A program made the position numbers and the translations under genes. The notes below the pieces were generated by a model. That model saw nothing but the letters and a program-made list of their open reading frames with translations, was not told the DNA's origin and did no database searches. From assembly GCA_964016885.1 (NCBI GenBank), contig OZ024747.1:46624001-46688000 (forward strand): a DNA stretch of 64,000 bases, given 5' to 3'. This DNA comes from Eledone cirrhosa (Eukaryota). Shown here one piece after another: positions 2,774-61,666 of this stretch. Within the stretch, counting starts at the first letter, position 1, and each line of letters begins with the position of its first letter.

Positions 2774-2816
2774 GTCACTGAAGAGGTCACAGAATGTGTG
2801 ACGAAAGAACTTTGAC
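2774..2816 (+). ncRNA. Type I minimal hammerhead ribozyme
   Basis: gtca-CTGAAGA-g-gtcaca(gaatg)tgtgac-GAAA-gaac-TT-tgac: stem I gtca/tgac, 6-bp stem II, minimal stem III. Flanked by inverted repeats 2523-2598 / 2825-2986. Confidence 0.85.
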
Positions 2817-3781: not shown

Positions 3782-3847
<66 letters not shown>

Positions 3848-3850
<3 letters not shown>

Positions 3851-4216
3851 CGGAAAAAATGAAACGAAATTTCATTTCCCACTCTTAGTACGGCTGTTAC
3901 TTAAATATAAGTATGTACACGTACATACATATATGTATACAGACGTACAGTAGTATGTAAATATATATACATACATGACGATAGCTAATAAGCTTGAAAC
4001 TAGTACAGCGTTCCTTTGTCAGTGTTGAACAAACGAGCAACGATGGTTGCTAGACACTACGGCTTAATACGGGATGTTTGTTTACAAACACACCGAGCAT
4101 TATAATAAATGTTCGGTGAATCCATACGTACATATATATATGTGTGCATGTATGTATATATATATACATACTACTGTACGTCTGTATACATATATGTGTG
4201 TACGTGTACATACTTA
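3848..4216. mobile_element. Dispersed partial copy of the 420-nt HHR repeat family, with inverted 5' segment
   Basis: 3848-3975 and 3976-4216 match the 31436-32312 unit in opposite orientations. Contains truncated HHR tgacgatagctaataagcttGAAActagTAcagcg. Flanked by (TA)n. Confidence 0.9.
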
Positions 4217-4991
4217 TATATATATATATATATATACATATATATATTGTAAATTTCTTTCTTTATATAAATCTTTAGCAGTATGCTCTATGAACATGAA
4301 TATATTGAGGTTTACAATGATAATAGAATAATTATTAGGCATGTACTGAGTGAGGAAGTGTTTGTAGGTTAACACGATTTCCTTGTATCAAAATTAATAC
4401 ACACACACGCTCGCCCCGTCAATGTTGAGAGAGAAAGTAGTGAACGCATTAATTGGTGAACATTTGAGCCCGCATGTTTTAATAAATATCGTAATTAACT
4501 TTCATCTTCAGTACTAATAATATATATGAGCATATAGAGAAAAATACGCATAGAGATATGTGTTCAATCATCGGGGATCAAAAACCACCAGAGTGATGAA
4601 CATTTTGTCTATGAAAGGAAAGGTGAATACAATTATATTAAAAGAATAAATTAAAGTATACTAACCATCATGTTAGTCTATAACTCCGTTCTTTAATTTA
4701 GTACTAATAATATACACATTACACATCTACTTCAGGACTCTAATATGAGTGATAAGGTATATAAGCCCTTCGATTACTTATTTCCTTATGGTTGTTGAGA
4801 TTATATACGTGGTTTCTGAAGAAAACCCAACTAGTCATGAAAACTGGTTAAATTTGTTTATCAATTTTCAATTACACTTGGTATGTTTATATGACTATAT
4901 GCTAAAGATGTATATATTTATATACATATATTTCTATTCTGTATATATACAAATATATCATTATCATATATTTCGGATGCTTATTGGGCAA

Positions 4992-7271: not shown

Positions 7272-8308
7272 ATGGATGCCATTTCCACCTCGCACACTGT
7301 CGTGAGTGCCACGCCCACTAAGAAAAGTGGTGGAGGGAAGGTAGGAGTACAAAGCTTGCAGCCTTCCCCCCTCGCATTATCGAAAAACGCTGAAAATATT
7401 GAGACCTCGAAACCAAACCCGGTAGATAATACCAGCACCAACAACAAGAACAATGACAATAACACTACAACCAACAACTGCAACAATAGCAACACCAAGG
7501 AAAACATGAACAATATTACCAACAGTGACAGCAACAAAAAAGATAACAACACCAAAACAACATTCGCACAGACTGTAAAAAAAAACGAACTATACACGCC
7601 AATAGACATAACAAATGCTAAACAACTATTACAAGACGCAAAATAATTTGTGACTTTTGGCGAAAACGGTGCTTTTAGCATCAATTCTCCACAGTAATTA
7701 CGTAGAGAGGTTGTCCTGAAAACTGTGGTTTTCAGGACAATATCGAACGAAACAAGAAAACCAGCTCAATTATCACAAAATGAAATTGAGCTGGTTCTAA
7801 AAGATGCAATGAAGGACTTAACCTTCATACAAAAAGGTAAACTGTTTGGTAGCATTTCGGTGCTGATGAACAACCAGTCAACAGCTAAAAAGTACTCGGT
7901 ATCACCCATTGTGTCCCCCCGCTTCACCTTTTTCCCCACATACAGGGGAAAAAGGACACAAAGAATAAAAATAATGAGTATCACACCAAATGTAAATATT
8001 TGGTGGATACTATGTGGAATCATTGACTTTGACGAAGACAAGATAATTTCAATAGGAAAGTCCTCCGGAGGTGTATTTGGTGGGACCAGCGTAGAAGTTC
8101 TGGAGCAAATGAGCCCAGAACGAATAGCGAATATCCCGCAACGCGTGCCTCTAGACGGGCTAACTTATATAAACATTTCAGTGGAGAGAAGGCGGTCGTC
8201 ATGTTACCACTGCTTAAGCAGGGGTCACCTGAGGGCTTCCTGTCCTCAATTAACGAGTAAAAAAAAAAGGCTCTTCTACCAACCCCGAACACAACCACCA
8301 CCACCACC

Positions 8309-8348
<40 letters not shown>

Positions 8349-9086
8349 CCACAACAACACGGAAAAATAACAACACAAAACACTGTTCCACCCAACCCCT
8401 CCCCACCTAAAACAAATACAAAAGCAACCACAACAAAACCCCAAAATATACCCCTCCCCAACAACACGGAAGAGGACTCCGTATCGACGTCACCCGGTGA
8501 CGACGAGGGAGAACACTTTCAACAGGTGAAAAGGAAAAAAAAAAGGCACCACATTAACAAAAATGCCACAAACACACAACCACCAGCACAAACAGAACAA
8601 ACATCACAAATAAAAAAACCCACCCCTCCCCAAAACATAACACGTACTACAAAACGCAAACACGCACAAGAACAACAAACAAAAACAAACACAACACAAC
8701 AAATACTCTATACATACATTAACAAGAACAATAAAACGTTGATGAAAGCGATAGAAAATAACCTTTCGGTGGAAACCGAAGGGATCACTTTCACTTACGC
8801 AGCGAATAAACCGCACCTAATGATGATTAGGGTCCCAACGGAAACCTATGTAACTTTGAAAAAGAACCATCCAATGCATATGGGGACCAACTGCACCAAA
8901 CCACATAACAGCGTCCTATTGAGATGTTTCCCAACCCCCACACCAGACACCCACACCCCACCAAACACCCTAATCCCACCACACACTGATGTCCTCACCC
9001 CACCACAAACCACGACCCCACCAAACAACCCTTCCAACACCCCCATGGAAATTGTGCAGCCTGGTCCCCAGGAGATGAAGAGGTAA
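7272..9086 (+). pseudogene. LINE ORF1 (gag-like, zinc knuckle) with two in-frame stops near 7644-7697
   Basis: ORFs 7272-7646 and 7725-9086 share a frame. Contains CYHCLSRGHLRASC, an Asn-rich N-terminus and a Pro/Thr/Gln-rich tail; homologous to 62448-63887. Confidence 0.88.
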
Positions 9087-9128
9087 GTAATTTCCTTTCC
9101 TCTTCCTTTTTAACTCTTCAGCACCAAC

Positions 9129-12100
9129 ATGGCCAATATAAGAGTTGGATGTGTGAATGCACGCGGCTTGGGGATGTCCTGGAAACAGGGCAAACTCTGA
9201 AATGACCTAAGGTCGCACAGAATAGATGTAATGGTTATTTGCGAGTCCAGGATCAGCAGCTAGCGCCAACTGGCTCCCATCTTCAACGACTTTGAGATCT
9301 ACGCATTTCTCTGTCAGCCGAGGGGTGGGGGTGGGGTTGTCGTTCTGCTGCGAAAATACCTGGGTCTTGCTACACAGAAGGTACACCTGGACCCGGAGGG
9401 TCGACTGGTGGTTTTAGACGTCGGCAGTGGTGAAGGCGGAGCTTTCAGGCTGGTGGCAGCGTATGCCCCATCTGGGACACCGCGACCGGACTTCTACCGA
9501 CGCGTGGAGAATTTCCTGGGAACGTCTCGCTTCTTGCTTTTAGTGGGGGATTGGAATGGTATCCTGGATGCCCGTTGGGACTATGTAGGGGCATGTCCCG
9601 ATAGAGGGGGGTGTAACAGCCTCAAACGATTAATCGGCCGATTTGATCTGGCCGATAGATATCGACTAGATTTTCCGACTGTGCCACGGTGGACGTGGAG
9701 TAATCGCAGCGGAACATCTAGGACGTACCTAGATAGGTTCCTAGTTAGAAATAAGGATAGGGACATATTAAGCTGTCCACGAATGTTCATGGTTGACTAT
9801 TCGGATCACAAGTTGGTGACCGGAGTGGCCAACCTTGATAGAACTCATAGACAGGGACCCGGGTACTGGAAGCTAAACTTGTCTTTACCGACAAACAAAG
9901 CTTACAGTAAGCGGATTAGAACACTAGTTAAGCAGCGTTTGACGGGGGCGATTGTCAACAGCAGGTGGTGGGGCTCTCTCAAGAGAGAAATTAGAATAGA
10001 ATCGATAGGTTTTAGTCGGGAATTAGCATCAGATAGGAATAGAACTGAAAGGGAATTAACAAATAGAGTAGAAGAGGCGATTAGGAGTGGCAACGTGGCC
10101 GGCGTCGAGAACGGCCCTAGACCAGTTCTTTGATGCGAAGCACGAGGGCGGCGTTGTCAGGAGTAAAAAAAGTGCTCGGAGTAACGAGGGAGCCAAAGCT
10201 GTTAGCTGGGCCCGAGTGACAGAAGCAAAAAGTGGAAACAAGTCAACGATTCGGTCTTTGAAGGACCAGGATGGACGCGTGATCCTTGAACGTTAGCGGA
10301 TGAGCGCGGCCTTTCAACGGCACTTTGCACGACTGTTCGGGAGGGGCGGCGGGACGGGTGGGGCCATGGATTTCGGTCCATACCTCGACGGTCTGGCGCG
10401 GCTCTCGGACGGGGAGGCGAAGTCCTGCGAGAGGCCGATTTCAGCCGCTGAAATAGGAGAAGCGCTGAGCCAATGCGGCAAACGCAAATCTCCGGGTCTC
10501 GATGGTCTACCATACGAACTTTATGTAGCGATGCCGGGCTTGTTCTCCGGTCTCCTCGAAGCGGTCTACTGCAACTGGCAAGAGAACGGCAGAATTCCCA
10601 GTTCTGTGACCAAGGGCGTAGTCACGCTGGTGAGGAAGGACGAGAACAAGGGGGATGACATAGATAACTTCAGGCCCATAACTCTGCTAAACACAGAGTT
10701 AAAGATTTTGACCAAGGTGTTAGCGAAGAGGTTGGCGCTTGTCGTCGGGAACTTGGTGGGAGAAGCGCAGACATGCGCAATCCCGTCCAGGTCCATACAC
10801 GACAACCTCCACCTCATGCGATACATCGTAGAGAGGGTAGGGAACGAACCCGGCTTTGGTGGGGCCCTGATCAACTTGGATCAATCTAAGGCGTTCGATA
10901 GGGTTGACCATCGGTACCTGGATGCGGTGCTCGCGGCGGCAGGATTCGGACCCGTTTTCAGGGGCTGGATTGCTGCAATGCACAGCAGCAACACCTGCTC
11001 GAGGGTCAAGTTGAACGGCTACCTCTCGGAGCCCTTCCAAATCACGCGATCCATCCGACAGGGATGCCCTCTCTCCTCCCTCCTGTATGTGCTGGCTCTC
11101 GAGCCACTACTGCGGAAGCTGGAGCTGTTGCAGGGCATCCCCTTGGAACCGGGATTGCGGAAAGCGGTGTCGGCCTACGCCGATGACGTGACAGTAATGG
11201 TGTCGTGCGCCTCAGAAATCGGGCAGATCGGCACCTTACTGGAGGAATATGAAAGGTTGACAGGAGCCAAGCTGAACCGGGACAAGTCCGTCGGTTTGCA
11301 ACTCGGGACGTGGAGGGGCAAAACGATGCCCTCCGACGGCATCATCGGACGCAGGACGGAGGGACCGGTGAAGCTGCGCGGGGTCTGGTTCTGACCGGAC
11401 TTCCAGGTGGAGAAAAACTGGGACGAGGTAACGGGCAAGGTGTTTGCACTCGCCCAGAAGTGGGCCGAGTGCAAACTATCCCTGAAAGGTCGAGCGGAGG
11501 TGGCGAACGCTTATATAGCGTCCGTCATCTACTACCGCTTGATCGTCGTGCCTTGCCCAGAGAAAACACTCGCCAAAATGGAGCGCGCGCTCTTCCGATT
11601 TCTTTGGAAGAAGCGGGCTCCTTTGGTGAGAAGATCCATCTGCTGTCAACACCCTTCGAACGGAGGGCTGGGGTTGCCGTGGCTGATGATGCGTAGACAC
11701 GCATTAAGGCTACGGCACCTCCAGGTATTCCTCACCGGTCAGCCGGTGTGGGCCCTGTTTGTGAGGCGAGCCTTTCCGAGACTCGTCTCACTCACCGAGC
11801 TGCAATCCTGAGTCAAGCAAAGACCGAGAAAAGTGGGCGACTGGCACATTGAATGTGCCCAGACGCTCACGGCCCTCTGGCAAGCGGATCCAGCAATCAG
11901 CGGAGACTCAACCTCAACATTCTATAGAGGGTTGGTGCGCAGTAAGTGCGACAACGCCCTCGGAGAGGCTCTGGGCATGGAGGAAGACGAGCTGGCCAGT
12001 CTGTTCGGTAGGACGTTTGGCCCGGGACCGATGGACAACTTCCAAAAGTCCCTGGCTTGGCAATGTTTCCGAGGAGCTCTACCCGTTCGGGACAAGCTTT

Positions 12101-12558
12101 ACAGACACGGGCGCCCGGGTAGGGACCCCTCGAAGAAGATCTGTCCAAGATGCGTGCGGGACGAGGAAACCGTCGCACACGCATTCGTACACTTCCCGGG
12201 CGTTGCTGACCTGTGGGGCTATGTGGAACGACTACTGTCGCGGGTGGGACCAATCCGGTTGTCCACCGAGAACATTGTCACAATCAAATCGCCTCTCCCT
12301 TTCAAAAACGAAGGAGAGGCAGTTTTCATCTGTGTGATAGCCATGGCGAAAGAAGTTGTATGGTGGACAAGGTTGAAAGGGCTGAGGTCAGACACCTTTC
12401 TCTCTGGCCAACAACTGGTCTTTTTTTCCAAGTACCACTTTAGAAGAAGGATCAGAATGGAGAGAGTGGTGCTCTACCCCAGCAAGTTTTATGAAAGATG
12501 GGTGAAAGTAGCGAGAATGGCCCGAGTGAATGGGCTTTCTCTCTATATCAGCCTGTAG
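9129..12558 (+). pseudogene. LINE ORF2 (APE endonuclease-reverse transcriptase) with stops and frameshifts
   Basis: Motifs MANIRVGCVNARGL, VGDWN, SDHK, GYWKLN, KSPGLDGLP, NFRPITLLN, DQSKAFDRVDH, RQGCPLS, AYADD, GGLGLP and CPRC..ETVAH. Confidence 0.95.
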
Positions 12559-14294: not shown

Positions 14295-14745
14295 TGTATG
14301 TATGTATGTATGTATGTATGTATGTGTGTGTTTGTGTGCGCGTGTTTAAGCGTTTATATTGATCCTCAATTTCTTTTGAATTCCCGTCCATGCACCTGTT
14401 ACTGGTATATCGTACACGTAGCATAGATAATAGAATAGCTTTCCATTATACAATAACTTCTATCATATCAATGTGATTGCCTTATAAAATATTAATGGTA
14501 ACAGCAGCCATCAATTACGTAACTGCTGATTTGGGCAAATGGTAACACTTCTTGTGCATGAATCGCAGCAGCTTGAATAAACACCGTTTTTTAACTATAC
14601 TAAGTCTACACAAATAATTAAAAAAATTAACTAAATATTGTCTTTGTAAAGAATGGCATGACCAATATACTCGTACATACATACATACATACATACATAC
14701 ATACATACATACATACATACATACATACATACATACATACATACA

Positions 14746-16192
14746 TGGTGGCTGCCAACTCGTTTTCGAGTACGGTCACTACTTTATATCCATGTAGGAG
14801 TACCCCTACCGATGCGCTGAACGAGTGTGACCTTTTAATCCAGCCAGCGACTTGAAAACTCTGGTACAAACACTACACCTGTGATAATTATTGTGACATA
14901 GTGCTGGGCCCATGGTACCATGTGACGACAAGTGCAGAGAGATCTCCAGATATAAAGCAATGCCTGTGCCGTGAAGCTTTTATAGTGAGCAAAGACACTG
15001 CACAAAGCCAGTCCCACTCTTTTAACCAAGATGATATTTACCAAAAAGAAGAACACGTCAACATCATTGGATACCATCAGAGTTGCAGGTGTTATATCAG
15101 AGTTTACCTTCTAGAATTCTGCCTTGACAAAGGCTAAGGGTTCATCTCTCCCGGACATACATACATACATACATACATACATACATACATACATACATAC
15201 ATACATACATACATACATACATACATGGTGGCTGCCAACTCGTTTTCGAGTACGGCCACTACTTTATATCCATGTAGGAGAACCCTTACTGATGCGCTGA
15301 ACGAGTCTGACTTTTTAGTCCAGCCAGCGACTTGAAAACTCTGGTACAAACACTACACCTGTGACAATTATTGACACATAGTGCTGGGCCCATGGCACCA
15401 TGTGACGACAAGTGCAGAGAGATCTCCAGATATAAAGCAATGCCTGTGCCGTGAAGCTTTTATAGTGAGCAAAGGCACTGCACAAAGCCAGTCCCACTCT
15501 CTTAACCAAGATGATATTTACCAAAAAGAAGAACAAGTCAACATCATTGGATACCATCAGGGTTGCAGGTGTTATATCAGAGTTTTCCTTCTCCTAGAAT
15601 TCTGCCTTGACAAAGGCTAAGGGGTCATCTCTCCCGGTGATTTTGGATGGCCATTGACTCTTAAGAGCTCCTTTGCCCTTTGACAGGTTTTGTTTTTAGT
15701 CCTGCAGGATGTCCAAAGTCACCCTCCTCACCAAGAAACCTTGGTGGGGTTGCACATACATACATACCTACATACCTACATGGTGGCTGCCAACTCGTTT
15801 TCGAGTACGGCCACTACTGTATATCCATGTAGGAGAACCCTTACTGATGCGCTGAACGAGTGTGACTTTTCAGTCCGGTCAGCGACTTGAAAACTCTGGT
15901 ACAAACACTACACTTGTCACCATTATTGACACATAGTGCTGGGCCCATGGTACCATGTGACGACAAGTGCAGAGAGATATCCAGATATAAAGCAATGCCT
16001 GTGCTGTGAAGCTTTTATAGTGAGCAAAGGCACTGCACAAAGCCAGTCCCACTCTCTTAACCAAGATGATATTTACCAAAAAGAAGAACAAGTCAACATC
16101 ATTGGATATCATCAGGGTTGCAGGTGTTATATCAGAGTTTTCCTTCTCCTAGAATTCTGCCTTGACAAAGGCTAAGGGGTCATCTCTCCCGG
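14746..16192 (-). mobile_element. Three tandem copies (14746-15153, 15226-15754, 15781-16192) of a non-autonomous RTE-derived retroelement with (TGTA)n tails
   Basis: ~410-bp near-identical units separated by CATA tracts. Minus strand contains ctaggagaaggaaaactctga, a motif I recall from RTE 5' UTRs. Confidence 0.65.
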
Positions 16193-16534
16193 AGATACCT
16201 ACATACACACATACATACCTACATACACACATACATACCTACATATATACATACATACCTACATATATACATACATACACACATACATACCTACATATAT
16301 ACATACATACACACATACATACCTACATACATACACACATACATACCTACATATATACATACCTACACATACCTATATACATACATACACATAACTACAT
16401 ATATACATACATACCTACATACACACCTACATATATACATACCTACCTACACACATACATACATACACAGACAAAAAGGTGCAAACTGTTTAAATACATA
16501 CATACATACATACATACATACATACATACATACA

Positions 16535-17308
16535 AATGGCTGCGATATCTGGCACCTTCAAAATTTGCAAAACATTCTTGCGATTCAAGGGATGACAATT
16601 TCTTTTCTTTTACAACCTTGCCACCAGGAAGGTGGCCGGTCAAAAAAATATACTCAAAATTAAGAGAAAGAGAAAACATACATAATATGAAAGAGTACTG
16701 GTGGAATGTTCCAGTAAAATCCCCAATAGAATGCAGGCATAACAGACCAGATATTATGATATGGGACAGGGAGAAGAAAGCATGCACAGTAGTGGAAATT
16801 AGCTGCCCAGCAGATGCCAATATAATATCAAAGATTAGTGAAAAGGAGAACATTTATGCAGAACTGATGAGAAATCTGCAGACACTCCACCCTAATTACA
16901 CTTTCAGATTTATACCTGTGATTATTGGGGCACTGGGGTATGTTAGTAACTGCCTCAATACAAATATTGAGAAGCTGGGCTTCACAGGAACAGAAAGAAC
17001 ACAACTAATTAGGAAATTACAAGTACAATCCATTAATGGAACAGTAAAAAATATGTAAAACATTCCAAAAATTTTGCATCTAATAACTGCATATACACAT
17101 ATACAGATTCAAAGCATATACACATGCACACATACAACTCAAAACATACACATCCACACATACAATAACATCCATATCTACACATGCATGCATACATACA
17201 TATCTACCTAGTTGATGTGTAAATTCCAATGAGAGAGTCTTGTGTCTATGTTAGAAACCGACTCTCTCTCTATTGGTAAAACTTTGTGAAATTATAAAAC
17301 CAGAAGAA
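16535..17308 (+). mobile_element. 3' fragment of R4/Dong-like LINE (restriction-like endonuclease domain and 3' UTR)
   Basis: HNRPDIMIWD...VVEISCP...EKENIY...IPVIIGALG. 3' hairpin ccaatgagagagtc...gactctctctctattgg. Flanked by (CATA)n on both sides. Confidence 0.85.
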
Positions 17309-17366
17309 CATACATACATACATACATACATACATACATACATACATACATACATACATACCTACA

Positions 17367-17626
17367 TGGTGGTGGCTGCCAACTCGTTTTCGAGTACGGC
17401 CACTACTTTATATCTATGTAGGAGAACCCCTACCGATGCGCTGAATGGTGTGACTTTTTAGTCCAGCCAGCGACTTGAAAACTCTGGTACAAACACTACA
17501 CTTGTGACAATTATTGACACATAGTGCTGTGCCCATGGAACCATGTGATGACAAGTGCAGAGAGATCTCCAGATATAAAGCAATGCCTGTGCCGTGAAGC
17601 TTTTATAGTGAGCAAAGGCACTGCAC
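17367..17626 (-). mobile_element. Fourth, truncated copy of the RTE-derived unit
   Basis: Matches the start of the 14746 unit; CATA tracts on both sides. Confidence 0.8.
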
Positions 17627-27924: not shown

Positions 27925-28485
27925 AATATATCTATATATATATATATATATGTCAGTTAAGTGTGTAACTACAGTTTCATTTGGCGCGTCGTTTGAAGCA
28001 CTCAATGCTGTTACGAAGCCTGTCTTGTGTGGGTTGCATTCCAGAGTTAAGGCGGCTGTATTGTACAGATTGTAAATATTGAAAGTAGAATCGAAGTCAG
28101 TGTTGGAGCATATGTACAAACGTTATTGGTATATTACAATTGTTTCGATACAGATCAGCTCAGGGTACAAGCAAGATGACGAGGCGCGACGCTTCTTCGA
28201 CATTTCCTTTGATATGCGCTTTTACATATGTGCAATGACACATCTAATCTCATATATATATATATATAGGAAAAAGTATGACCTCGACGGCAGAGCTCAA
28301 GCCTTTTCGACGGCTATTTCTGGACTAAATTAGAATTTAATCTAATTTAGTTCAGAAATAGCCGTCGAAACGGCTTGAGCTCTGCCGTCGCGGTCATACT
28401 TTTTCCTATTACCCACTCTACTACCCTAAGTATTGAGTACTCTGGTGCGTTATGGTCCATCTGGTTCGTTACAGCACTTCCTTCG

Positions 28486-28529
<44 letters not shown>

Positions 28530-29038
28530 CAACTAGAAATTGATTAACATATAAATAAACATATGAAACAATCACGGGTGATATGGCGCATGCCTTTCTG
28601 GCATGACACCCATAATTTTGACTTAGATTAAATTCACTTTGATTTATCTTAATTTTATATATATATATATATATAAATATATGTAGGAGGTGAGTTTTAT
28701 TGTAGTACAATAAAGCAATGCAGATATCGGATAAGAAGCACTCTACAGTTTGTAGGACTGGAGTATACATAATATATAAGAACAAAAGATGGTTAAAAGA
28801 GTTCCATGTATTTTATTATGCGCATTTCAAAAACAAATATCATCATGCAATAATATTTGTGTTTTTAAAAGAGAAGAAAGGGAAGTGATAAATAGGAGCG
28901 ATATAGAATGAGTAACAAGTATTATAGAATGTATAATAACCTTTGAAATAAGGTAGAAAGATGGGTATATTTTTAAAGAAGTGTATATATATATATATGT
29001 GTGCCTTTGAGAAAAAGATTCTAAATTGATAAAGAATA

Positions 29039-29458
29039 TTAGCTGTATACTTTGTGGAATGTTTTGTGGAATTTATGCAAGCATATAGAAAACAAGTCAG
29101 TGCGTCTATTTATTATAGAATCTAAATTAGATATAATGGTAAATTTTTCATTTAGACAGAGATTGCAAATTTTGGATAGAGAACTGTTCAAGGATGAAGA
29201 CGCAGAAGAAACCTTCTTCCAAAAGATGCTATATTTAATATTTTTGTCTTTCAAGGACCATATGAGTTCTGAGAGAGCCGTGTTGGTTCTTTTAAGTTTG
29301 TATTTAAAAGACGAATGATGGTTATAAAGACGAGCTTTAAAAGAGGTGGAAGTGGAGCCAAAATAGGTGAAGGAATTGGTGTCAGTTATAACTTTACATT
29401 CGTAAATTAAGTTTTTATCAAGACAATGGTTGTTGAGAGGACATTTATTTTTAACATT
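29039..29458 (-). pseudogene. GIY-YIG endonuclease C-terminal fragment of a PLE
   Basis: Open frame KCPLNNHCLDKNLIYECKV...TYFGSTSTSFKARLYNHHSSF...LSELIWSLK...CNLCLNEKFTII...INRRTDLFSICLH. The track shows only the last 71 aa. Confidence 0.88.
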
Positions 29459-30300
29459 CTATAATACTTGTTACTCATTCTATATCGCTCCTATTTATCA
29501 CTTCCCTTTCTTCTCTTTTTCTTTTAATGTCTAACCCCTAATCTGTACCTTTTCTCACTGTTGCCTAACATTGAATCAATTATTACATAATACAATACAT
29601 TCTTACACTATATCACCTTGTAAAAATCCTTCGTAAACAAACATTTTTTTGACGTTAGATTATTCATCCTGAATTCATTTTTTTTTCTCCCTTTCATCTA
29701 ACTCATTCATGCTCATCTCACAATATATCCTTACTTAAATTACCTGTTGTTCTTTTTAATAATACATATCAACATTTTCTTTCCATCGCACATATTAGTA
29801 AACCCTTAAATATCATTCTTAATACATATTAACTTTTTCTTTTCCATCGCACATGTTATTAAACCCTTAAATATTATTCTTAATACATATTAACATTTTC
29901 TTTTCATCGCACATTTTATTAAACCCCTCAATATACAAACCTTAACTTTACATTATTTTTCTCTTCGTTAATTTTCAAATTCTTTTAATTTATACATTAT
30001 CTTCCAACGGTTTTCAACCTCTCTATGTAAAACAATATATCTTTCTCAGTTATAAAAGCTATCTCTCTCTCTCTATCACCCATCTCTCCTCCTATCTCAT
30101 CCTTCCTCATTATACTCCTCCCTCTCCACTTTTTACTCTCATCTCCTCCTCTCTTTCATCCTCCTCTCTTTCACCCCCCCCCCCCTCAAAATAAAATATT
30201 TTTCCCAATATCACACATCAATCTAAAACTACTTTTCATATGTTGATTTAAAACTGCACTATCCACAAGTGTTTTTTAACCTTCATATCATGTCTTCCTG

Positions 30301-30367
30301 TTTTATCTGATGAAAACACAAATATTATTGCATGATGATATTTGTTTTTGAAATGCGCATAATAAAA
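30301..30367 (+). ncRNA. Type I hammerhead ribozyme (PLE terminus)
   Basis: ttttat-CTGATGA-aaac-acaaatatta(ttgcatga)tgatatttgt-tttt-GAAA-tgcgca-TA-ataaaa. Confidence 0.9.
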
Positions 30368-30397
30368 TACATGGAACTCTTTTAACCATCTTTTGTT

Positions 30398-30491
<94 letters not shown>

Positions 30492-30788
30492 ACATATTAT
30501 AAAGTAAGAAGAAATATTAGCCATAAATAAATACCCATTTTTTCTTCAAAGTCCCAAGAAGATAAAATGGGTATTAATTTATGTCTACTATTTCTTCTTA
30601 CTTTATAATACGTTACATAGCTCTGATATCGAGTCAATTTAATTATTCCAATTATCTTGTCTCTCATAATCATAGAGCAACACCGGTTAAGGTCGATAAC
30701 ACAATCTCACATACTTGTGAAAAATAAATATATGTGTATATATGCATGTATATGTATGTATGCACATATTTTGTGTACCTCTCATTAT

Positions 30789-30878
<90 letters not shown>

Positions 30879-31089
30879 TATGTACACGTACATACATATA
30901 TGTATACAGACGTACAGTAGTATGTATATATATATATATATACATACATACACGCACACATATATATATGTACGTATGGATTCACCGAACATTTATTATA
31001 ATGCTCGGTGTGTTTGTAAACAAACATCCCGTATTAAGCCGTAGTGTCCAGCAACCATCGTTGCTCGTTTGTTCAACACTGACAAAGGA

Positions 31090-31132
31090 ACGCTGTACTA
31101 GTTTCAAGCTTATTAGCTATCGTCAGCAACGT
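31090..31132 (-). ncRNA. Hammerhead ribozyme, 420-nt family, intact stem I
   Basis: Minus: acgttg-CTGACGA-t-agct(aata)agct-t-GAAA-ctag-TA-cagcgt. Confidence 0.88.
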
Positions 31133-31579
31133 ATACCTTCCTGCCAGATTGTTGAACGTATATACTTACCTTATGCATATTAACGGCTGAGTAGCCCAAT
31201 TTGCATATCGAGTGGGTTAATCGGCCGGGTGCACCGAAAACGATAAACGGAAAAAATGAAACGAAATTTCATTTCCCACTCTTAGTACGGCTGTTACTTA
31301 AATATAAGTATGTACACGTACATACATATATGTATACAGACATACATTAGTATGTATATATATATACATACATGCACACATATATATATGTACGTATGGA
31401 TTCACCGAACATTTATTATAATGCTCGGTGTGTTTGGGAAATGAAATTTCGTTTCATTTTTCCGTTTATCGTTTTCGGTGCACCCGGCCGATTAACCCAC
31501 TCGATATGCAAATTGGGCTACTCAGCCGTTAATATGCATAAGGTAAGTATATACGTTCAACAATCTGACAGGAAGGTAT

Positions 31580-31622
31580 ACCTTGCTGACGATAGCTAAT
31601 AAGCTTGAAACTAGTACAGCGT
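31580..31622 (+). ncRNA. Hammerhead ribozyme, 420-nt family
   Basis: accttg-CTGACGA-tagctaataagctt-GAAA-ctag-TA-cagcgt; predicted cut after 31616. Confidence 0.85.
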
Positions 31623-31999
31623 TCCTTTGTCAGTGTTGAACAAACGAGCAACGATGGTTGCTGGACACTACGGCTTAATACGGGATGTTTGTTTACAAAC
31701 ACACCGAGCATTATAATAAATGTTCGGTGAATCCATACGTATATATATATATGTGCGTGTATGTATATATATATATACATACTACTGTATGTCTGTATAC
31801 ATATATGTATGTACGTGTACATACTTATATTTAAGTAACAGCCGTACTAAGAGTGGGAAATGAAATTTCCTTTCATTTTTTCCGTTTATCGTTTTCGGTG
31901 CACCCGGCCGATTAACCCACTCGATATGCAAATTGGGCTACTCAGCCGTTAATATGCATAAGGTAAGTATATACGTTCAACAATCTGACAGGAAGGTAT

Positions 32000-32042
32000 A
32001 CCTTGCTGACGATAGCTAATAAGCTTGAAACTAGTACAGCGT
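32000..32042 (+). ncRNA. Hammerhead ribozyme, 420-nt family
   Basis: Identical to the 31580 copy; predicted cut after 32036. Confidence 0.85.
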
Positions 32043-32307
32043 TCCTTTGTCAGTGTTGAACAAACGAGCAACGATGGTTGCTGGACACTACGGCTTAATA
32101 CGGGATGTTTGTTTACAAACACACCGAGCATTATAATAAATGTTCGGTGAATCCATACGTATATATATATATATGTGTGTGCATGTATATATATATATAT
32201 ACATACTACTGTATGTCTGTATACATATATGTATGTACGTGTACATACTTATATTTAAGTAACAGCCGTACTAAGAGTGGGAAATGAAATTTCGTTTCAT
32301 TTTTTCC

Positions 32308-32345
<38 letters not shown>

Positions 32346-32523
32346 TTAATATAGAAGAGATTCTACAGGACTAGAACTGTTTCATTCATTAGATTCCTGA
32401 TGATTTCTAATGAATGAAACAGTTCTAGTCCTGTAGAATCTCTTCTATATTAAAACTATTATACTCTGCTATGTATTGAGTACCTTACTTACTGTGGTTA
32501 CCTCCGATTCAACCCAGAATAAC

Positions 32524-32567
<44 letters not shown>

Positions 32568-35226
32568 AGTCAGGACCCCGACGGCTAGCTCCTGCCCTTA
32601 TGACAGTTAGATCCGAACTTTATATATATCTATACAAGAAGGAAGTACAGCACAATCGAAGATCTGGTTGCAGCCAAACTAACGAATGCAGTCGGGATAT
32701 ATATATATATATATATATTTATATAACTATGTCCGAATAAGCAACTAGAACGTAAACAAATAAAAACCAAACACATGTTATCCACAAACCTAAGGCAACA
32801 CAAACCATAACCTACACTAGGCCTTATCTACAAAACTGTACTGCATCAGATATAAATATGTTTCAAATATATCTTTCGAAATCCTAATCCAGCCTCGCAG
32901 CCATCTAGCAAGCACCCTTCTGCAATTAATAGTATGGGAGTCACGGAAATCATCAGATTTATTGTTTGTATTGTTTTTTTGTTGGGAGTTTAAACAGTAG
33001 TAGTGTAAGTTAAACTGTAATTGTGCGTGTATACATGCATTCATTTATGTTCTCTACGTCTATTACATTTAACAATCCAGTTCCCATACTATTTAATCTA
33101 TCGCACTTGTTTCTTTATAGCAAGTACTACATCGTAATGTATATTGCTGCATGTATACGAGTATATCCGTGTTGATTTATTAAAATTTGATATTAAAACT
33201 GTCATATCTTATTCGATTATTCTTTGCCCACAATTATAGAAAGTCCCGACTAAACTACGAAAGAAATAGTGTGTGTTTATAGATGAGTTGATATGTTGTG
33301 AGGAGCAAATAAACCTGACTTGGGAGCTGGTATGCTGTCTTTCATCTCAGAGACAAAACGAGATGCTATCAACTGCAGTTACAGACCTGAAATATGTTTC
33401 AACAGGTGAGCAGTACCTCATTGTGTCTACAACAGACCTGTCAACTCTCCCCGTCCAACGGGGAGATCTCCCACCGATTTTGGGGTGGGTGAGAGATGTC
33501 TTCTCTTGTGAAAATAAGTATACCTTTCATTATGTAAAATCTCCCAATTTTGCTTAATTTCTACTCGTTTTGGGGCACCTTTTTTCATGGTACTCCTAGT
33601 TCGTGTTTTTAGAGGTTGGTATATCTGCTACAGTATATGAATTAAACCACAATCATGCATTTCACTGTATAGGATTTGGTGAAGCAAACCATTACCAGTT
33701 GCCGTGGACTCAATCTTTTTACCTATAAAATCTTAGCTGTTGTAATGTAATCATTAGTAAGGCCTGACTCTCAATGTAACGTGTCCTTCTCTTTGCTGTA
33801 GCAATAAACAAATGTAGAAATAGAATACGTAAATAGTTCAGTATGCTATAAGATTTTTGTACATCTCCAATGAATATAGCAAACCTTTTTATTGGATTAA
33901 AAAACAAAATAAAACAACAAAACTATATGTAAGTGTGTTTTGAACCGGTGAACAACGATTAACGAACTTGATACAGCTTCAACGAGTTCTTGATTTCAAT
34001 TTACAAATAGAGGAAATGTTTCGATTGAGCACGTTCCGTTTCGACGATCCCCGCCGAACATATAGAGCTTTTGGCTAGCTCATAATGTAACTTCCATGTA
34101 GTGGTCTCTCATACTGCTAGAAATACTAGCCAAATTGGTGACAAATATTGTGGCTAATACTTATTAGAGATGACGGTTTAATGATGTTTTACTCTGGATT
34201 ATATTTATTGAAATAGGAAGAAAGATGAACAATAATTAATGCATTTTTTATCTTAACAAAATATCAACACATTGTTTTCAACAGTCAAAAAGGAAATAAT
34301 CTTTTCTATTTTGAACCGAATTCTCAGTTCATAACTTGAATATTACACAATTAAACAAGATTTTATAGGTTGTCTCCTTATTGGGTGTATTTTCCCTTTT
34401 TAAATGTAGTAGGTAAAGGATGATCTAAGTGTAAAATAATATTTACATTAATAAATACAATTGATTGGGCAATACACTAGTGACTAAAGAGCAAAGACTA
34501 ACAATACCATATATTTTATAATAATTCAACATTGAATCTTAAAACTAACTTCTAACATTCATTTTCGAAAACTAAAAACACAAAGAAACCGGCAGGGAAA
34601 CAGTAGTCAAAAATCTACTTTCTTGTCTTACCAATTGGGTAACAATAAAATGTTCTCATAAATGTATATATCTGGCAAAATCACACGAACATCTGAAGAA
34701 GATAAGATGCTCAATCGAAAAACTCTGAAAAAATCGGGAATAGATAAAATTATATGTAAGGTCTAGATTTCATCTGACTTCACAGACTAAATGCTCCTTA
34801 ACGGACCGAGAAATGCTCTATGAGAAAATTGATTCAGACAATTCATAACTACACATTTATCCATGACCACGTTTTATACACTTTCTACAAACACACACGC
34901 ACATACATACCCACACTCACAATGGCATGGACACACACACTGACACGCACAGATATATTCACACAAATATACATTCTCAGTTAGGCATACAAACACTTAT
35001 CGTGTACATGCGTTTGCTTACCTATGTGTAGTTTACATAAATATAAATAATTGTATTTTATATTACACACACATACACACACACCTATATATATATATAA
35101 CAAGTAGAATCCAGAAATAGCCGTCGAAACGGCTTGAGCTCTGCCGTCGGGGTCATAATTTTTCCATATATATATATATATATATATACATAGTAACCAC
35201 ACAGCTCCTTTCGTTTCATAACTTTT

Positions 35227-40142: not shown

Positions 40143-41690
40143 TTATTCTCTTGATTTCTTCGAATTCTGTTGTTCAGTTACTACTTTCACACCCTGTTGT
40201 TTCATCTTTTCCAGTTTTGGAGGAAATGCCATTATTTTGTTATCGCTGAGATCCAATAGTCTAAGATTGCTTAGCTTAGATATACTGTTTGGAACGTTCT
40301 CGATTAAGTTGTCTTTGAGTATGAGCTCTTGGAGACGGTGCATATTCCAAATATCTCTTGGTAGAGTTTTTATATTATTTCCAGTAAGATCTAGTCTTTT
40401 AACCCGATAAATTGATGTGAAACTAGGTGGAAATATACTGATATTGTTTGCAAACAAAATGAAGTCACAGACAGAGGCCATAACTTCCATTTTAGCGTCA
40501 GGAAACACTTTAATAGAATTACTTGACAGATCTACATAATTTAGTCCTATCATATCACCAAAATCTTCAGGTAATTCTAATATTTGATTAAAAGAAAGAT
40601 TCAACACGTTCAACAAATCCATATTTAGCATATTCTCTGGAATTTCTTTGATGCTATTACAAGATGCATTTAATTTGCGTAAATTTACGAATTTGTCAAT
40701 GGAATTTGGCAATGCTTTTAGTTCATTTTCACTAACGTCAAGTTCTATAAGCTTTCGAAGTTTACAAACATTATCTGGAATAACTTTGATGGAATTTCCG
40801 TTGAGATGCAGTACTTCCAGCAACTTACATCGACTAAGGGATGCCGGAACCTCTTCCAGACCAATATTACTCAGGTGTAAATGCGTTAGATATTTTGAAT
40901 TTTGCTTTTCACCAAGACTTCCCAAAATGGACGATTTTTGATCTATTGAAAGAGGATTTCCATTTAAAGTCAGTTGCGCTATGGACTTTGGTATTGAGAA
41001 ATGTGAAAGATTACAATTTGACACATTAATAATACGCAGAAATCTCATTTCTCCTAAATATTTAGGTAAGCTGTTCAGTTCGTTACCCGATACGTCGAAT
41101 TCCTCCATAAACATCAATCTACTCAGGTCAAGTTCATCCTTCAAGTTACTTCTAGCAAATTTAAAACTTCTAATAACTTGATTTGCACCAATATATGATG
41201 GGAAATATGCCATACAATTTCCACTAAAGTTGATATTTTTTAATGACTGAATTCTGCCGAGATCTGGGTGGAAAGAGTCAATTCTGTTGCCAGCGACGTC
41301 CAAAGTAATTAAATGATTTAGTTTATGTATGTCAATAGGAATATTTCTAAGTCTATTGTTCGCAAAAATCAGATGTTCCAAACTTATTAAGTTACCAACT
41401 GTGTAAAATTTTGATATCTTGTTGTTAGACAAATTTAAGTATTTAAGCGATTTTAGTTTAAGAAAACTATCTGGTAATTTCTCGATCAAATTAGTAGAGA
41501 TATTTATAGTTTCTATACGTTTTATGATTCCGAAATCTAGTGGTAACTCTGTAATTAGATTTGAATTCAAGAGAAGCGTGTTCATCCCGCACTCCCAGCC
41601 AGCGACAGTAGCAGGAAGCTGATAGATTTGATTGAAAGATGCATCGAAATGACGCAGATGCTTCAAAGCTCCAATACTTTCTGGCAATAC
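40143..41690 (-). CDS. Leucine-rich-repeat protein, terminal coding exon
   Basis: 515 uninterrupted codons of LxxLxLxxNxLxxLP repeats. Acceptor acacag|GTATTG at 41691/41690; stop at 40143. Confidence 0.93.
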   Translation of the reverse strand, partial: VLPESIGALKHLRHFDASFNQIYQLPATVAGWECGMNTLLLNSNLITELPLDFGIIKRIETINISTNLIEKLPDSFLKLKSLKYLNLSNNKISKFYTVGNLISLEHLIFANNRLRNIPIDIHKLNHLITLDVAGNRIDSFHPDLGRIQSLKNINFSGNCMAYFPSYIGANQVIRSFKFARSNLKDELDLSRLMFMEEFDVSGNELNSLPKYLGEMRFLRIINVSNCNLSHFSIPKSIAQLTLNGNPLSIDQKSSILGSLGEKQNSKYLTHLHLSNIGLEEVPASLSRCKLLEVLHLNGNSIKVIPDNVCKLRKLIELDVSENELKALPNSIDKFVNLRKLNASCNSIKEIPENMLNMDLLNVLNLSFNQILELPEDFGDMIGLNYVDLSSNSIKVFPDAKMEVMASVCDFILFANNISIFPPSFTSIYRVKRLDLTGNNIKTLPRDIWNMHRLQELILKDNLIENVPNSISKLSNLRLLDLSDNKIMAFPPKLEKMKQQGVKVVTEQQNSKKSRE

Positions 41691-41784
41691 CTGTGTATAT
41701 TGAAAAACCGTGTTAAATATATGAAATATAAGCAGCTACAAAAAATAACAATGCATAGACATAGCAATAAATATATTGCTTTGA

Positions 41785-46627: not shown

Positions 46628-46663
46628 TCTTCTGATGAAGGACTAGCGTCTGAAACGTTAAGA
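46628..46663 (+). ncRNA. Minimal type I hammerhead ribozyme
   Basis: tctt-CTGATGA-a-ggac(tagc)gtct-GAAA-cg-TT-aaga; loopless palindromic stem III (AACGTT). A degenerate relative lies at ~38328-38365. Confidence 0.85.
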
Positions 46664-53550: not shown

Positions 53551-53684
53551 GATTGACACAGTGTTTCCAAGATCGATCCTCACAAAATCAATATAATTGA
53601 ATTAAACCCTTAAAGCTGGTGTCTTGTTATGGACAGTCTAATGCCTGACGCTTATTAAGAATATACCAATAAGAAATTACATAC

Positions 53685-54191
53685 CGTGAGTTCATTGTGG
53701 GAAAAATCAATGTAGCACAGAAGTTCCAATCTCTGAATATTATCAGGAGTTTTCACGATTGTGTTATGAGATACAAGAAGCGACTTCACCCTTGGTTTTT
53801 TTTTGCCACCAACTTCAGGAAGTTTTGTCAGTTTGTTGTAACTTAAATCGAATGTACCAAATGAATTGTATAAAGTCTTTCTTATTGACTTGATAGCATT
53901 ATGATTAACATCACAATATTCCAACCAATTTAACAAATGAATTTTCTTTGGAAGTGAACGAATACGATTCTGTGAAGCATATATGTGTTTCAATGAAATA
54001 CATTTATGGATTCCGGGAGGAAGGACCTTCATATTATTATTTGTGACATCTATCACGAGGAGATACGGCAGATTCGATACAGTCGGTGGGAGTTTATTTA
54101 GGAGATTATTTTTAAAATTTATTATTCGCAATTTTTCCATCATTCCAATGTCTTTATTGATACGCTTCAATCTGTTATTATTTGCAAAGAT
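53685..54191 (-). CDS. Leucine-rich-repeat protein, internal exon (169 codons, phase 0-0)
   Basis: Acceptor ttaacag|ATC and donor ACG|gtatgt. Splicing gives IDFSHNELT|VLPESIGAL, a complete LRR across the junction. Confidence 0.92.
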
Positions 54192-54307
54192 CTGTTAAGA
54201 ATATATTTAAGAAAGTAGACAAAATGTTAAATACGTCAATGAATACATCATAATTTTCTTTAACTAAAAACAAATCATCGACCTTAAAGAGAGAGAGGGA
54301 GAAAGAG

Positions 54308-59699: not shown

Positions 59700-59929
59700 A
59701 CGCACACGCACACGCACACAGACACACACACACACATATGTATATATGTGTGTGTATATATATATATATGTATGTATGTATGTGTATATATATATGTATA
59801 TACATATGTATATATATATATTAATAAAAGGAATTCAAACTTTGTCTGATTTACTCGTTTTATTTACAATCCTTTAAAATTTATAATGGTGTTAGAATGA
59901 AATAGTATGGTAGAATATTAAATGTTAAG

Positions 59930-59967
59930 TGAACAAGTACTTTCATGCTTTCGCAATCTTCAGGTTC
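59930..59967 (-). ncRNA. Minimal hammerhead ribozyme (inverted PLE terminus)
   Basis: Minus: gaac-CTGAAGA-t-tgc(gaaa)gca-t-GAAA-gtac-TT-gttc. Confidence 0.88.
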
Positions 59968-60002
59968 TTAATGTGTGGTGACAATCATTACTCCTAGATA
60001 TA

Positions 60003-60911
60003 ATGATAATCAAAAACGACACCACCATTACCACCGATATATATTATAAACACACAGACACCCATCAATATCTGAATTTTAAGTCGTGCCATCCACGTCA
60101 TACAAAACGCAACATCCCATACTGTCTAGCCAGAAGAATTTGTTCCATTGTAGAAGATACGAATACCAGGTACAAACGCCTAACAGAACTAAGAGAATTT
60201 TTGCTCAAACAAAAATACCCATCTCTACTTATAGAAAATGGCATACAGCGGACTATAAACATACCTATACAACAACTTAAGACAACCCAAGGAAGAAGAA
60301 ACCAAGAACTGGTCATACCATTTATAATGACACACAACCCATTTCCCCAGAATATCTTCAACACTGCCAAAGCAAACCTACCGATCATTGCTCAAAGTAA
60401 TGAATTAAAAGGCTTAATCACAGATCGATCTTTGACTCCTAGTAAAATACAGCCGAAAAATTTGAAGCAATTACTAACAAAAGCAAAGTTTGACCTTAAC
60501 AACAAAGACCAATCATTCACTGTATCTAAATGCAATGATAGTCGATGTGGCACATGTCAATCCATACACGCCGGTCAATATATGAAAACAAAAACTGGAA
60601 AAATATTCCCTAATGCAAATATGAACTGCAAAAGCAGAAATCTAATTTACTGCATTAAATGCCCGAATTATGAAGAACTATATGTCGATCAAACTGGAAA
60701 TGCACCATCGGAACGTGCACGGGTACACCGACAGCAAATCAGAGACCCAGATATCCGTCAGATACCCCTAAGTAACCATCTAGCAACATGTGGTCAGGGA
60801 ATTTTTATAATATTCCCATTCTACAAATTACACAGCCCAAGTGAAATCAAGAGAAAAATCAAAGAAAAGAATTTTATTGATAAATTCAAACCCAAGCTAA
60901 ATGAACAATAA
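60003..60911 (+). pseudogene. PLE ORF C-terminal fragment (RT thumb, Cys linker, GIY-YIG), Neptune-like
   Basis: TDIYYKHTDTHQYL..SCHP, CNDSRCGTC, NLIYCIKC..LYVDQTG..R..H and E..FI....P.LN. Confidence 0.9.
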
Positions 60912-60915
60912 TAAT

Positions 60916-61514: not shown

Positions 61515-61666
61515 ATTAACACTTAACATTTAATATTCTACCATACTATTTCATTCTAATACCATTATACATTTTAAAGGATTGTAAATAAAACGAGTAA
61601 ATCAGACAAAGTTGGAATTCCTTTTATTAATATAATCTTCTATACACAATCATACACACCCGTGTA

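What the first reader, a model, noticed from the sequence alone, without database searches (positions are those of the whole stretch)
30875..32312. 420-nt tandem HHR repeat with an inverted 5' block: second retrozyme-like family
Seen: ~2.1 forward units (cores at 31586 and 32006) preceded by ~1.3 inverted units, one HHR per unit with palindromic stem III (ACTAGT), (TA)n flanks and no real ORF. Known: minimal HHRs with palindromic stem III self-cleave as dimers in tandem transcripts. Inference: the two forward HHRs could pair and release monomer 31617-32036. The tandem-plus-inversion layout mirrors PLE insertions.
Basis: partly seen in the sequence, partly recalled or inferred. Interest (0 to 1): 0.82.

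Follow-up and report, generated by a model that had tools for sequence, protein, structure and literature searches.

The report
Penelope-mobilised hammerhead retrozyme with tail signature
A 420-base non-coding repeat with a hammerhead self-cutting RNA motif in each unit sits in TA microsatellites in the tandem, inverted and 'tailed' layout typical of Penelope-like retrotransposons, so it is likely a parasite of those elements of a kind already known from animals, although the two forward ribozymes at this site carry a rare mutation predicted to cripple them.

Summary
In detail: 2.08 forward units (31435-32313) follow 1.34 inverted units (30875-31436) of a 420-nt repeat in (TA)n. Each unit has a type I hammerhead with palindromic stem III (0 of 5,000 shuffles).

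It is a non-LTR retrozyme, a non-autonomous Penelope-like (PLE) derivative. A second copy at 3849-4220 ends at the same two unit positions, 56-59 nt apart, with the roles swapped. This matches the PLE 'tail' and two-site internal initiation of reverse transcription. No end lies at the ribozyme cut.

The family is high-copy and tandem in public contigs (7,431 contigs in one run).

Both forward ribozymes carry a stem I allele seen in 1.3% of family depth. It puts the active dimer 16 kcal/mol above the minimum, against 7 for the inverted copy's unit. Read-through RNA would also bury the second ribozyme in a long duplex.

One extra lead: a 91-nt GT-AG intron-like triad encloses the whole ribozyme. 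Cleavage, circles and splicing are untested.

The scan has noted similar elements on other DNA (e1-6787993, e1-7810660). Verdict: new member of a known kind.

The parts
30793..30876 (.). (TA)42 target microsatellite, left flank
30875..31436 (-). Inverted 5'-truncated block, 562 nt (1.34 units); its 3' end is terminus A (no tail), running into (TA)n
31096..31126 (-). Type I hammerhead core of the inverted block; 6-bp stem I intact (family-majority allele); the only ribozyme on this strand
31435..31436 (.). Head-to-head inversion junction with 2-nt TG microhomology; 23 nt of unit are missing between the inverted block's 3' end and the forward block's start
   Evidence: sequence
31435..32313 (+). 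Forward tandem block, 879 nt (2.08 units); its 3' end is terminus B (with tail)
31543..31633 (+). Candidate 91-nt spliceosomal intron (AG|GTAAGT donor, CTAAT in loop II, pyrimidine tract + CAG) enclosing the whole first ribozyme; repeated at 31963-32053; untested
31565..31633 (+). Hammerhead 1 with extended stem I (core 31586-31616, predicted cut after 31616); rare alleles A31568 and C31582 weaken stem I
31617..32036 (+).
31735..31830 (+). TA/CA-rich hairpin, the most variable part of the unit, ending at terminus A
31831..31889 (+). Internal copy of the 56-59-nt tail between termini A and B
   Evidence: loose end into (AT)n at 31889
31985..32053 (+). Hammerhead 2 (core 32006-32036), identical to hammerhead 1 including both rare alleles
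32255..32313 (+). Terminal tail, present at this end only
32311..32342 (.). (TA)16 target microsatellite, right flank
3849..3977 (-). Second insertion, inverted piece (129 nt) ending at terminus B (with tail), next to (TA)30 at 3790-3849
3976..4220 (+). Second insertion, forward piece (245 nt); starts inside the ribozyme core after a TG microhomology and ends at terminus A (no tail) in (TA)11

Best explanation
This 420-nt non-coding, hammerhead-bearing unit lies in (TA)n as tandem and inverted copies with two fixed 3' ends, and was likely copied in trans by a Penelope-like reverse transcriptase-endonuclease that would nick both strands of the microsatellite and would start cDNA at two internal sites of a more-than-unit-length, probably uncleaved RNA. 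SHOWN: the unit and ribozyme motif; the (TA)n targets; head-to-head junctions with 2-nt TG microhomology in both insertions; all 4 element ends at two unit positions 56-59 nt apart, one of each per insertion with roles swapped; no end at the ribozyme cut (214 and 273 nt away); tandem joints and many copies in public contigs; no ORF between tail and ribozyme. INFERRED: each nicked strand primes one cDNA, one at terminus A and one at terminus B, and the two 5'-truncated cDNAs join by microhomology, giving the inversion and the one-sided tail. The family ribozyme, with intact stem I, can probably cleave as a dimer and may give circles, but cleavage is probably not needed for insertion. This locus is likely a dead end, because both forward ribozymes are weakened and read-through RNA would form a duplex of about 560 bp.
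For: Termini, tail and junctions. The same terminus B runs into (AT)n in 31 contigs of run X1 and into AT-rich sequence in 2 contigs of X5. The rough chance that a second insertion reuses the same 2 of 18 TA-compatible sites is 0.006. Head-to-tail 'go back 420' joints occur in 3 of 4 runs laid (X1 11 contigs, X5 2, X6 1), and 7,431 X1 contigs were laid. PMC8557442 section 6 describes partial tandems, an inverted 5'-truncated copy, a 30-40-bp tail often at only one end, and (TA)n targets for PLEs. PMC11167929 shows that a PLE protein cleaves and extends both strands, starts at two adjacent internal sites that bound the tail, and does not need ribozyme cleavage. Across the family the 31-nt ribozyme core varies only at N7 and loop II, and the stem I pair 31583/31619 has variants on both sides. 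EN+ PLE remnants with the same inverted layout lie in the window.
Against: No autonomous partner was found: the unit has no real similarity to the PLE remnants in the window, and no genome is held. The tail is longer than the 30-40 bp reported. Only two insertions were read end to end. Terminus A could not be checked in the contigs because 31728-31820 was skipped. The two forward units share three alleles absent from the inverted unit, two of them rare in the family (6.9% and 1.3%). That fits copying twice round one circle as well as a homogenised linear source. The stem I variants were not phased, so compensation is not proven.
Confidence: 0.75

Rival explanations
1. Classical retrozyme cycle: tandem RNA self-cleaves as a double hammerhead, the 420-nt monomer is circularised, and the circle is reverse-transcribed round and round. 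I put about 0.4 on circles existing somewhere in the family and about 0.1 on this locus releasing them. This changes only the template in the best explanation.
For: The palindromic stem III duplex is -4.8 kcal/mol. The monomer is strongly folded. The two forward units share three alleles and differ by 1 substitution in 300 nt outside the TA tract, as expected from one circle. Mussel, coral and axolotl retrozymes give circles (PMC7229834).
Against: The four units of this insertion are mosaic: sites 31568/31582, 31757 and 31790 group them in three incompatible ways, so one monomer circle cannot be the only template. The shared C31582 allele is predicted to block the cleavage needed to make such a circle. 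Only 1 of 9 Xenopus retrozyme dimers cleaved in vitro (10.64898/2026.07.22.740005). PLE ribozyme mutants insert normally (PMC11167929).
Confidence: 0.3
2. The unit is only the pseudo-LTR and 3' end of an autonomous PLE, and the array is a pile of truncated ends.
For: PLE hammerheads sit in pseudo-LTRs, including dual motifs on opposite strands (PMC4209133). A related sequence sharing only 31553-31644 occurs in X1, X4 and X5 with different flanks and could be a parent element.
Against: In an autonomous PLE the tail continues into the element body or ORF (PMC11167929). Here, in all 3 places where the tail is internal (from 31435, from 31831, and in the inverted block), it runs straight on into the next ribozyme-bearing unit with only about 95 nt between. 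The 420-nt joint recurs in three runs.
Confidence: 0.1
3. A DNA-level satellite or fold-back rearrangement (slippage, break repair in long TA tracts) with an inert ribozyme relic.
For: Long (TA)n tracts and several short perfect hairpins lie nearby. Unit mosaicism suggests later conversion.
Against: Two separate insertions 27 kb apart use the same two ends with swapped roles. The tail is one-sided. Terminus B recurs in public contigs. The family keeps the ribozyme core and stem I.
Confidence: 0.04

Closest known systems
Metazoan non-LTR retrozymes (Cervera & de la Pena 2020, PMC7229834: passages and sections 14, 17 read; Li, Clavereau & Pollet 2026, 10.64898/2026.07.22.740005: parts 1-3 of 5 read)
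   Same: Short non-coding tandem units, one type I hammerhead each, GC under 45% (37.4%), strongly self-paired monomer, co-occurring with PLEs, proposed to be non-autonomous PLE derivatives.
   Different: The unit is slightly above the 170-400 nt given for invertebrates but inside the 51-972 bp range of Li et al. The parts I read argue the PLE link from shared ribozymes, co-occurrence and pLTR trees, and do not describe inversions or a one-sided tail ('inverted' occurs 0 times in PMC7229834). Circles are shown there and untested here.
EN+ Penelope-like elements: insertion structure (Craig et al. 2021, PMC8557442: passages and sections 6, 15 read) and PAc mechanism (Frangieh et al. 2024, PMC11167929: parts 1-2 of 4 read)
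   Same: Partial tandems, adjacent inverted 5'-truncated copy, tail at one end only, (TA)n targets, two internal start sites downstream of the ribozyme cut, and an intron in the pseudo-LTR/5'-UTR region of Penelope and Chlamys-3.
   Different: No RT or GIY-YIG ORF. The tail is 56-59 nt rather than 30-40. The start sites lie 214 and 273 nt past the cut, against about 85-92 in PAc (my arithmetic from the paper's coordinates).
PLE hammerheads with short palindromic helix III (Cervera & de la Pena 2014, PMC4209133: parts 1-2 of 4 read)
   Same: Palindromic helix III, one unpaired base before stem II, predicted dimeric cleavage, low activity expected in vitro.
   Different: In D. virilis Penelope the intron ends at the 5' side of helix I. 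Here the candidate intron would enclose the whole ribozyme and end at the last base of extended stem I.
Non-autonomous Chlamys elements such as MRC1 (passage in PMC8557442)
   Same: Non-autonomous PLE derivatives forming multicopy head-to-tail insertions.
   Different: Green-algal, and most Chlamys elements lack canonical hammerheads.

Membership tests
Non-LTR retrozyme | Type I hammerhead motif in each tandem unit | tested here: met
   3 complete cores in the 3 units that span the site; 0 of 5,000 shuffles. Stem I is weakened in 2 of the 3.
Non-LTR retrozyme | Short head-to-tail units of low GC | tested here: met
   420-424 nt, GC 37.4%; tandem joint in 3 of 4 runs laid
Non-LTR retrozyme | No protein-coding capacity | tested here: met
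   No ORF of 120 aa or more; longest stop-free stretch 105 aa; these short frames were not searched against protein libraries
Non-LTR retrozyme | Dispersed, high-copy family | tested here: met
   2 insertions in 64 kb; 7,431 contigs laid in X1, 68 in X5, 4 in X6, 1 partial in X4; summed depth is not a copy number
Non-LTR retrozyme | Highly self-paired monomer | tested here: met
   -140 kcal/mol, z -7.6, 0 of 100 shuffles; part of this comes from the TA/CA hairpin
Non-LTR retrozyme | Self-cleavage of tandem RNA | not testable with these tools
   Folding predicts poor activity at this locus and better activity for the family-majority allele
Non-LTR retrozyme | Accumulation as circular RNA | not testable with these tools
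   Only contig runs were available to lay; contigs cannot show RNA ends or circles
PLE-type insertion (works like) | Partial tandem plus adjacent inverted 5'-truncated copy | tested here: met
   Both features at this locus; inversion in 2 of 2 insertions
PLE-type insertion (works like) | Tail at one end only, bounded by two start sites | tested here: met
   2 of 2 insertions, on opposite ends; 56-59 nt, longer than the 30-40 bp reported
PLE-type insertion (works like) | Microsatellite / AT-rich target | tested here: met
   4 of 4 ends in (TA)n; target-site duplication cannot be discerned
Autonomous EN+ PLE | ORF with RT and GIY-YIG endonuclease after the tail | tested here: not met
   The tail runs into the next unit; no ORF
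Autonomous EN+ PLE | Sequence shared with an identified autonomous partner | tested here: inconclusive
   No match beyond chance to 7 other ribozyme-bearing regions of the window; the genome is not held
Intron-containing PLE pseudo-LTR | Functional spliceosomal intron near the ribozyme | tested here: inconclusive
   Triad in 0 (strict) and 2 (loose) of 10,000 shuffles, but two intervening AGs at usable distance, donor lost in 43.6% of X1 depth, and no intron-less joint listed

The most novel reading that the evidence does not exclude
The retrozyme keeps its ribozyme inside a real 91-nt spliceosomal intron whose 3' splice site is the last strand of extended stem I. Splicing and ribozyme folding would then exclude each other: splice and lose the ribozyme, or fold and self-cleave. 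Loss of the donor in about 44% of family depth would mark lineages that have committed to the ribozyme route. Together with the swapped tail, the family would show directly that retrozymes are inserted by PLE two-site internal initiation rather than from the ribozyme-cut end.
Probability: 0.2. Interest if true: 0.72.

Novelty: new member of a known kind. Interest (0 to 1): 0.42.

Why it matters
Which enzyme moves animal retrozymes, and from what RNA, is stated as open in the papers read (PMC7229834 discussion; 10.64898/2026.07.22.740005 discussion). This family carries the biochemically explained PLE fingerprint (PMC11167929) on an ORF-less retrozyme, with ends far from the ribozyme cut. That is sequence-level support for PLE mobilisation by internal initiation, and it gives a 420-nt substrate for testing it. 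It also shows that a tandem of motif-perfect cores need not be an active dimer. The intron lead, if real, would add a splicing-versus-cleavage switch.

Tried and rejected
Own genome: none is held, so copy number, permutation and ORF linkage could not be counted genome-wide.

Rfam: 0 matches at gathering score in the window. The 107 matches at E<=10 in 28000-34000 are almost all miRNA-type hairpin models below threshold, and no hammerhead family is among them; rejected as uninformative.

Expression: no RNA holder listed (6 runs, 3 studies, none on record as RNA); no conclusion drawn. I laid 4 of the 6 runs (X1, X4, X5, X6), leaving out X2 and X3 as the same sample as X1. The stretch 31728-31820 was skipped by the tool. 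X4 gave one partial contig only.

Linkage to the GIY-YIG-like ORF 1.4 kb away (29039-29458, minus strand): it resembles an RT-bearing protein P0001 (34% identity over 131 aa; Pfam scan blank). It belongs to a separate insertion with its own ribozyme and ends and shares no sequence with this unit; rejected as the parent. The same holds for the PLE remnant at 59.8-61.6 kb.

Pattern scans: the exact 31-nt core gave 0 metagenome hits. A degenerate 20-mer gave 6 metagenome loci, all without a GAAA core or further homology (chance), and 0 viral hits.

Host taxon: a search with the LRR exon gave only generic hits of 37% identity or less. My impression of an octopus-like genome is recall, not a result. 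The O. vulgaris repeat paper (PMC13282606, passages and its one supplement) mentions no ribozyme and holds no sequence library to compare.

A single monomer circle as the sole template of the whole insertion: rejected by incongruent unit alleles.

A short intron ending at 31571 (about 28 nt): rejected as too short.

One search crashed without output and was redone.

Earlier-findings look-ups by sequence and place gave nothing relevant.

Full report
OBSERVATION. The sequence and repeat search confirm the layout. A forward block at 31435-32313 (879 nt, 2.08 units of 420-424 nt) follows an inverted block at 30875-31436 (562 nt, 1.34 units). Both outer ends run into (TA)n: 42 repeats on the left and 16 on the right. 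Hammerhead cores lie at +31586, +32006 and -31126, each with CUGACGA, a 4-bp stem II, GAAA, the palindrome ACUAGU and a GUA cut triplet. Under rules demanding stems I, II and III, 0 of 5,000 dinucleotide shuffles of the unit contained such a motif. The window had 11 hits against 0.07 expected from 100 shuffles. Rfam did not detect it. There is no ORF of 120 aa or more, the longest stop-free stretch is 105 aa, and GC is 37.4%. The cut-to-cut monomer folds at -140 kcal/mol, z -7.6.

A SECOND INSERTION FIXES THE MECHANISM. A blast of the unit against the window found another copy at 3849-4220. It has the same build: (TA)n, inverted piece, head-to-head junction, forward piece, (TA)n. Both junctions share a 2-nt TG microhomology. 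All 4 element ends fall on two unit positions: terminus A (31830 in unit coordinates) and terminus B (31886-31889). In the main insertion the inverted block ends at A and the forward block at B; in the second it is the reverse. The 56-59 nt between A and B is therefore a tail present at one end only. With 18 TA-compatible positions in the unit, reuse of the same two has a rough chance of 0.006. Neither end is near the ribozyme cut, which lies 214 and 273 nt upstream. In unit coordinates, 23 nt are missing between the inverted block's 3' end and the forward block's start, and about 120 nt in the second copy. This fits two cDNAs primed from the two target strands and joined at their truncated 5' ends (inference; the analogy to L1 twin priming is recalled).

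WHAT THE PAPERS SAY. PMC8557442 (passages, sections 6 and 15) describes PLE insertions as partial tandems, often with an adjacent inverted 5'-truncated copy, a 30-40-bp tail often at only one end, and (TA)n targets. It calls the tail something not seen in non-LTR elements. PMC11167929 (parts 1-2 of 4) shows that a purified PLE protein cleaves and extends both strands of AT-rich DNA and starts cDNA at two adjacent internal RNA sites that bound the tail. It inserts equally well when the ribozyme is mutated, so uncleaved RNA is the main substrate. PMC7229834 (passages, sections 14 and 17) defines non-LTR retrozymes, shows circles in coral, mussel and axolotl, and names PLEs as candidate mobilisers. 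The preprint 10.64898/2026.07.22.740005 (parts 1-3 of 5; its bioRxiv supplements are closed and could hold relevant consensus sequences) argues a PLE origin and found cleavage in only 1 of 9 dimers. PMC4209133 (parts 1-2 of 4) explains dimer cleavage through a short palindromic helix III. By its terms this ribozyme is the canonical metazoan type I rather than the minimal form.

THE FAMILY. Six public runs from three studies hold the unit, all as contigs. I laid four on 31500-31919 at 85% likeness. X1 gave 7,431 contigs, X5 68, X6 4 and X4 1 partial. The head-to-tail joint 'goes back 420' appears in X1 (11 contigs), X5 (2) and X6 (1). Loose ends at 31889 continue as (AT)n in 31 X1 contigs, confirming terminus B elsewhere. 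Terminus A lies next to a stretch the tool skipped and could not be checked. Within the 31-nt core only N7 (8.3% of depth) and loop II (28.1%) vary. The stem I wobble pair 31583/31619 has variants on both sides (A 23.9%, G 13.2%; T 51.9%) that would give A-U or G-U, but they are unphased. X1 may be the window's own sample, and summed depth is no copy number. A related sequence shares only 31553-31644 and diverges on both sides (X1, X4, X5).

Both forward ribozymes have C at 31582/32002, where the inverted copy and 98.7% of X1 depth have G, and A at 31568/31988, where 93.1% have G. The first change makes a C-C mismatch. The stem I duplex goes from -5.2 to +0.7 kcal/mol, and pairing probabilities fall from 0.45-0.94 to 0-0.15. 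In the forward tandem RNA the active double hammerhead lies 16.2 kcal/mol above the minimum, against 7.1 for a control made by doubling the inverted copy's unit. A transcript reading through from the left would fold into a duplex of about 560 bp that pairs 42 of 43 nt of ribozyme 2. The minus strand has one ribozyme only. So this locus is predicted to be a poor source of the 420-nt monomer, while intact family members could be good ones. These are folding predictions without tertiary contacts or protein help, and the PAc ribozyme needed protein to cleave.

CIRCLE OR LINEAR MULTIMER? The two forward units share three alleles absent from the inverted unit and differ by 1 substitution in 300 nt outside the TA tract, against 2-3 to the inverted unit. 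That fits two passes round one circle, a homogenised source array, or later conversion. Other sites (31757, 31790) group the four units differently, so one monomer circle cannot have templated the whole insertion. I favour uncleaved multimeric RNA but cannot exclude circles.

PSEUDO-LTR RIVAL. In an autonomous PLE the tail leads into the ORF. Here it leads, in all three internal instances, into the next ribozyme after about 95 nt. The window holds PLE remnants: a GIY-YIG-like frame at 29039-29458 related to RT-bearing P0001, and a frame at 59982-60911 with a weak GIY-YIG match (E 0.008, below cut-off). Each has its own ribozyme and inverted piece, and none shares sequence with this unit beyond chance. 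The partner is unidentified.

INTRON LEAD. The unit has AG|GTAAGT at 31541-31548, CTAAT in loop II and a pyrimidine tract plus CAG ending at 31633. This would be a 91-nt intron that encloses the ribozyme and ends on the last base of extended stem I. The triad occurred in 0 (strict) and 2 (loose) of 10,000 shuffles and in 0 and 1 of 286 background tiles. Taking the ribozyme as given, a donor at a usable distance occurred in 4 (strict) and 211 (loose) of 20,000 shuffles. The loop II variant makes the branch-like site CTAAC. PLEs are known to keep introns in this region. Against: I set the rules after seeing the sequence; the acceptor-like tract is also explained by stem I pairing; AGs at 31613 and 31618 lie between branch-like site and acceptor; 43.6% of X1 depth has lost the GT; no intron-less joint was listed; and 0 of 7 other ribozyme loci in the window show the triad. 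Two searches listed five papers. I saw no enclosed-ribozyme intron in the parts read of three; PMC11722881 and PMC10226581 I saw as listings only.

NOVELTY AND VERDICT. The kind is known. A search for 'non-LTR retrozyme' with 'cephalopod' gave 0 papers, and one for non-autonomous PLE phrases listed 3 (listings only). The library lacks most subscription journals, and the host taxon was not established ('octopus-like' is my recall). Earlier notes of this scan describe a sea-squirt retrozyme (e1-6787993) and a ribozyme-less repeat inserted into TA microsatellites in the PLE pattern (e1-7810660). I saw them after forming my reading and did not test them. Verdict: a new member of a known kind, with an unusually clear PLE fingerprint, a probably crippled forward dimer, and one speculative lead. 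Interest 0.42.

Noticed in passing
window 28764-30415: Separate PLE remnant: GIY-YIG-like frame 29039-29458 (minus strand), partial tandem, inverted piece and its own palindromic-stem-III hammerhead at +30307. The same ribozyme recurs at +39067 with an end 12 nt shorter.
   Followed up: partly
window 59817-61634: PLE 3' remnant (309-aa frame 59982-60911, weak GIY-YIG match) with hammerheads at +61481 and, inverted, -59963; again in TA-rich flanks.
   Followed up: partly
   Followed up: no
window 2778-2812 and 46632-46659: Two further hammerhead motifs passing the stem tests, each of a different family. The window holds 11 hits against 0.07 expected.
   Followed up: no
window 28277-28399, 30492-30616, 32340-32460: Three ~120-nt near-perfect hairpins next to TA tracts. 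The last has a CTGATGA...GAAAC hammerhead-like core starting at its loop, perhaps a very short inverted PLE-type insertion.
   Followed up: no
window 14675-17620: Several copies of a ~410-480-nt repeat separated by (ACAT)n. By eye, a loose end in run X6 at the unit's start resembles the reverse complement of 14940-14975, suggesting a chimera of the two families.
   Followed up: no
window 40143-41735 and 53655-54194 (minus strand): Leucine-rich-repeat coding exons with only generic relatives of 37% identity or less; the element lies about 8 kb beyond the end of the larger frame.
   Followed up: partly
window 7698-12558 and 62433-63887: L1/Tx1-like LINE copies (RVT_1 at 10297-11394, E 5e-27; the subfamily label is recalled).
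   Followed up: no
positions 31553-31644: A related sequence in runs X1, X4 and X5 shares only the ribozyme region and diverges on both sides; a candidate sister family or the autonomous parent's pseudo-LTR.
   Followed up: no
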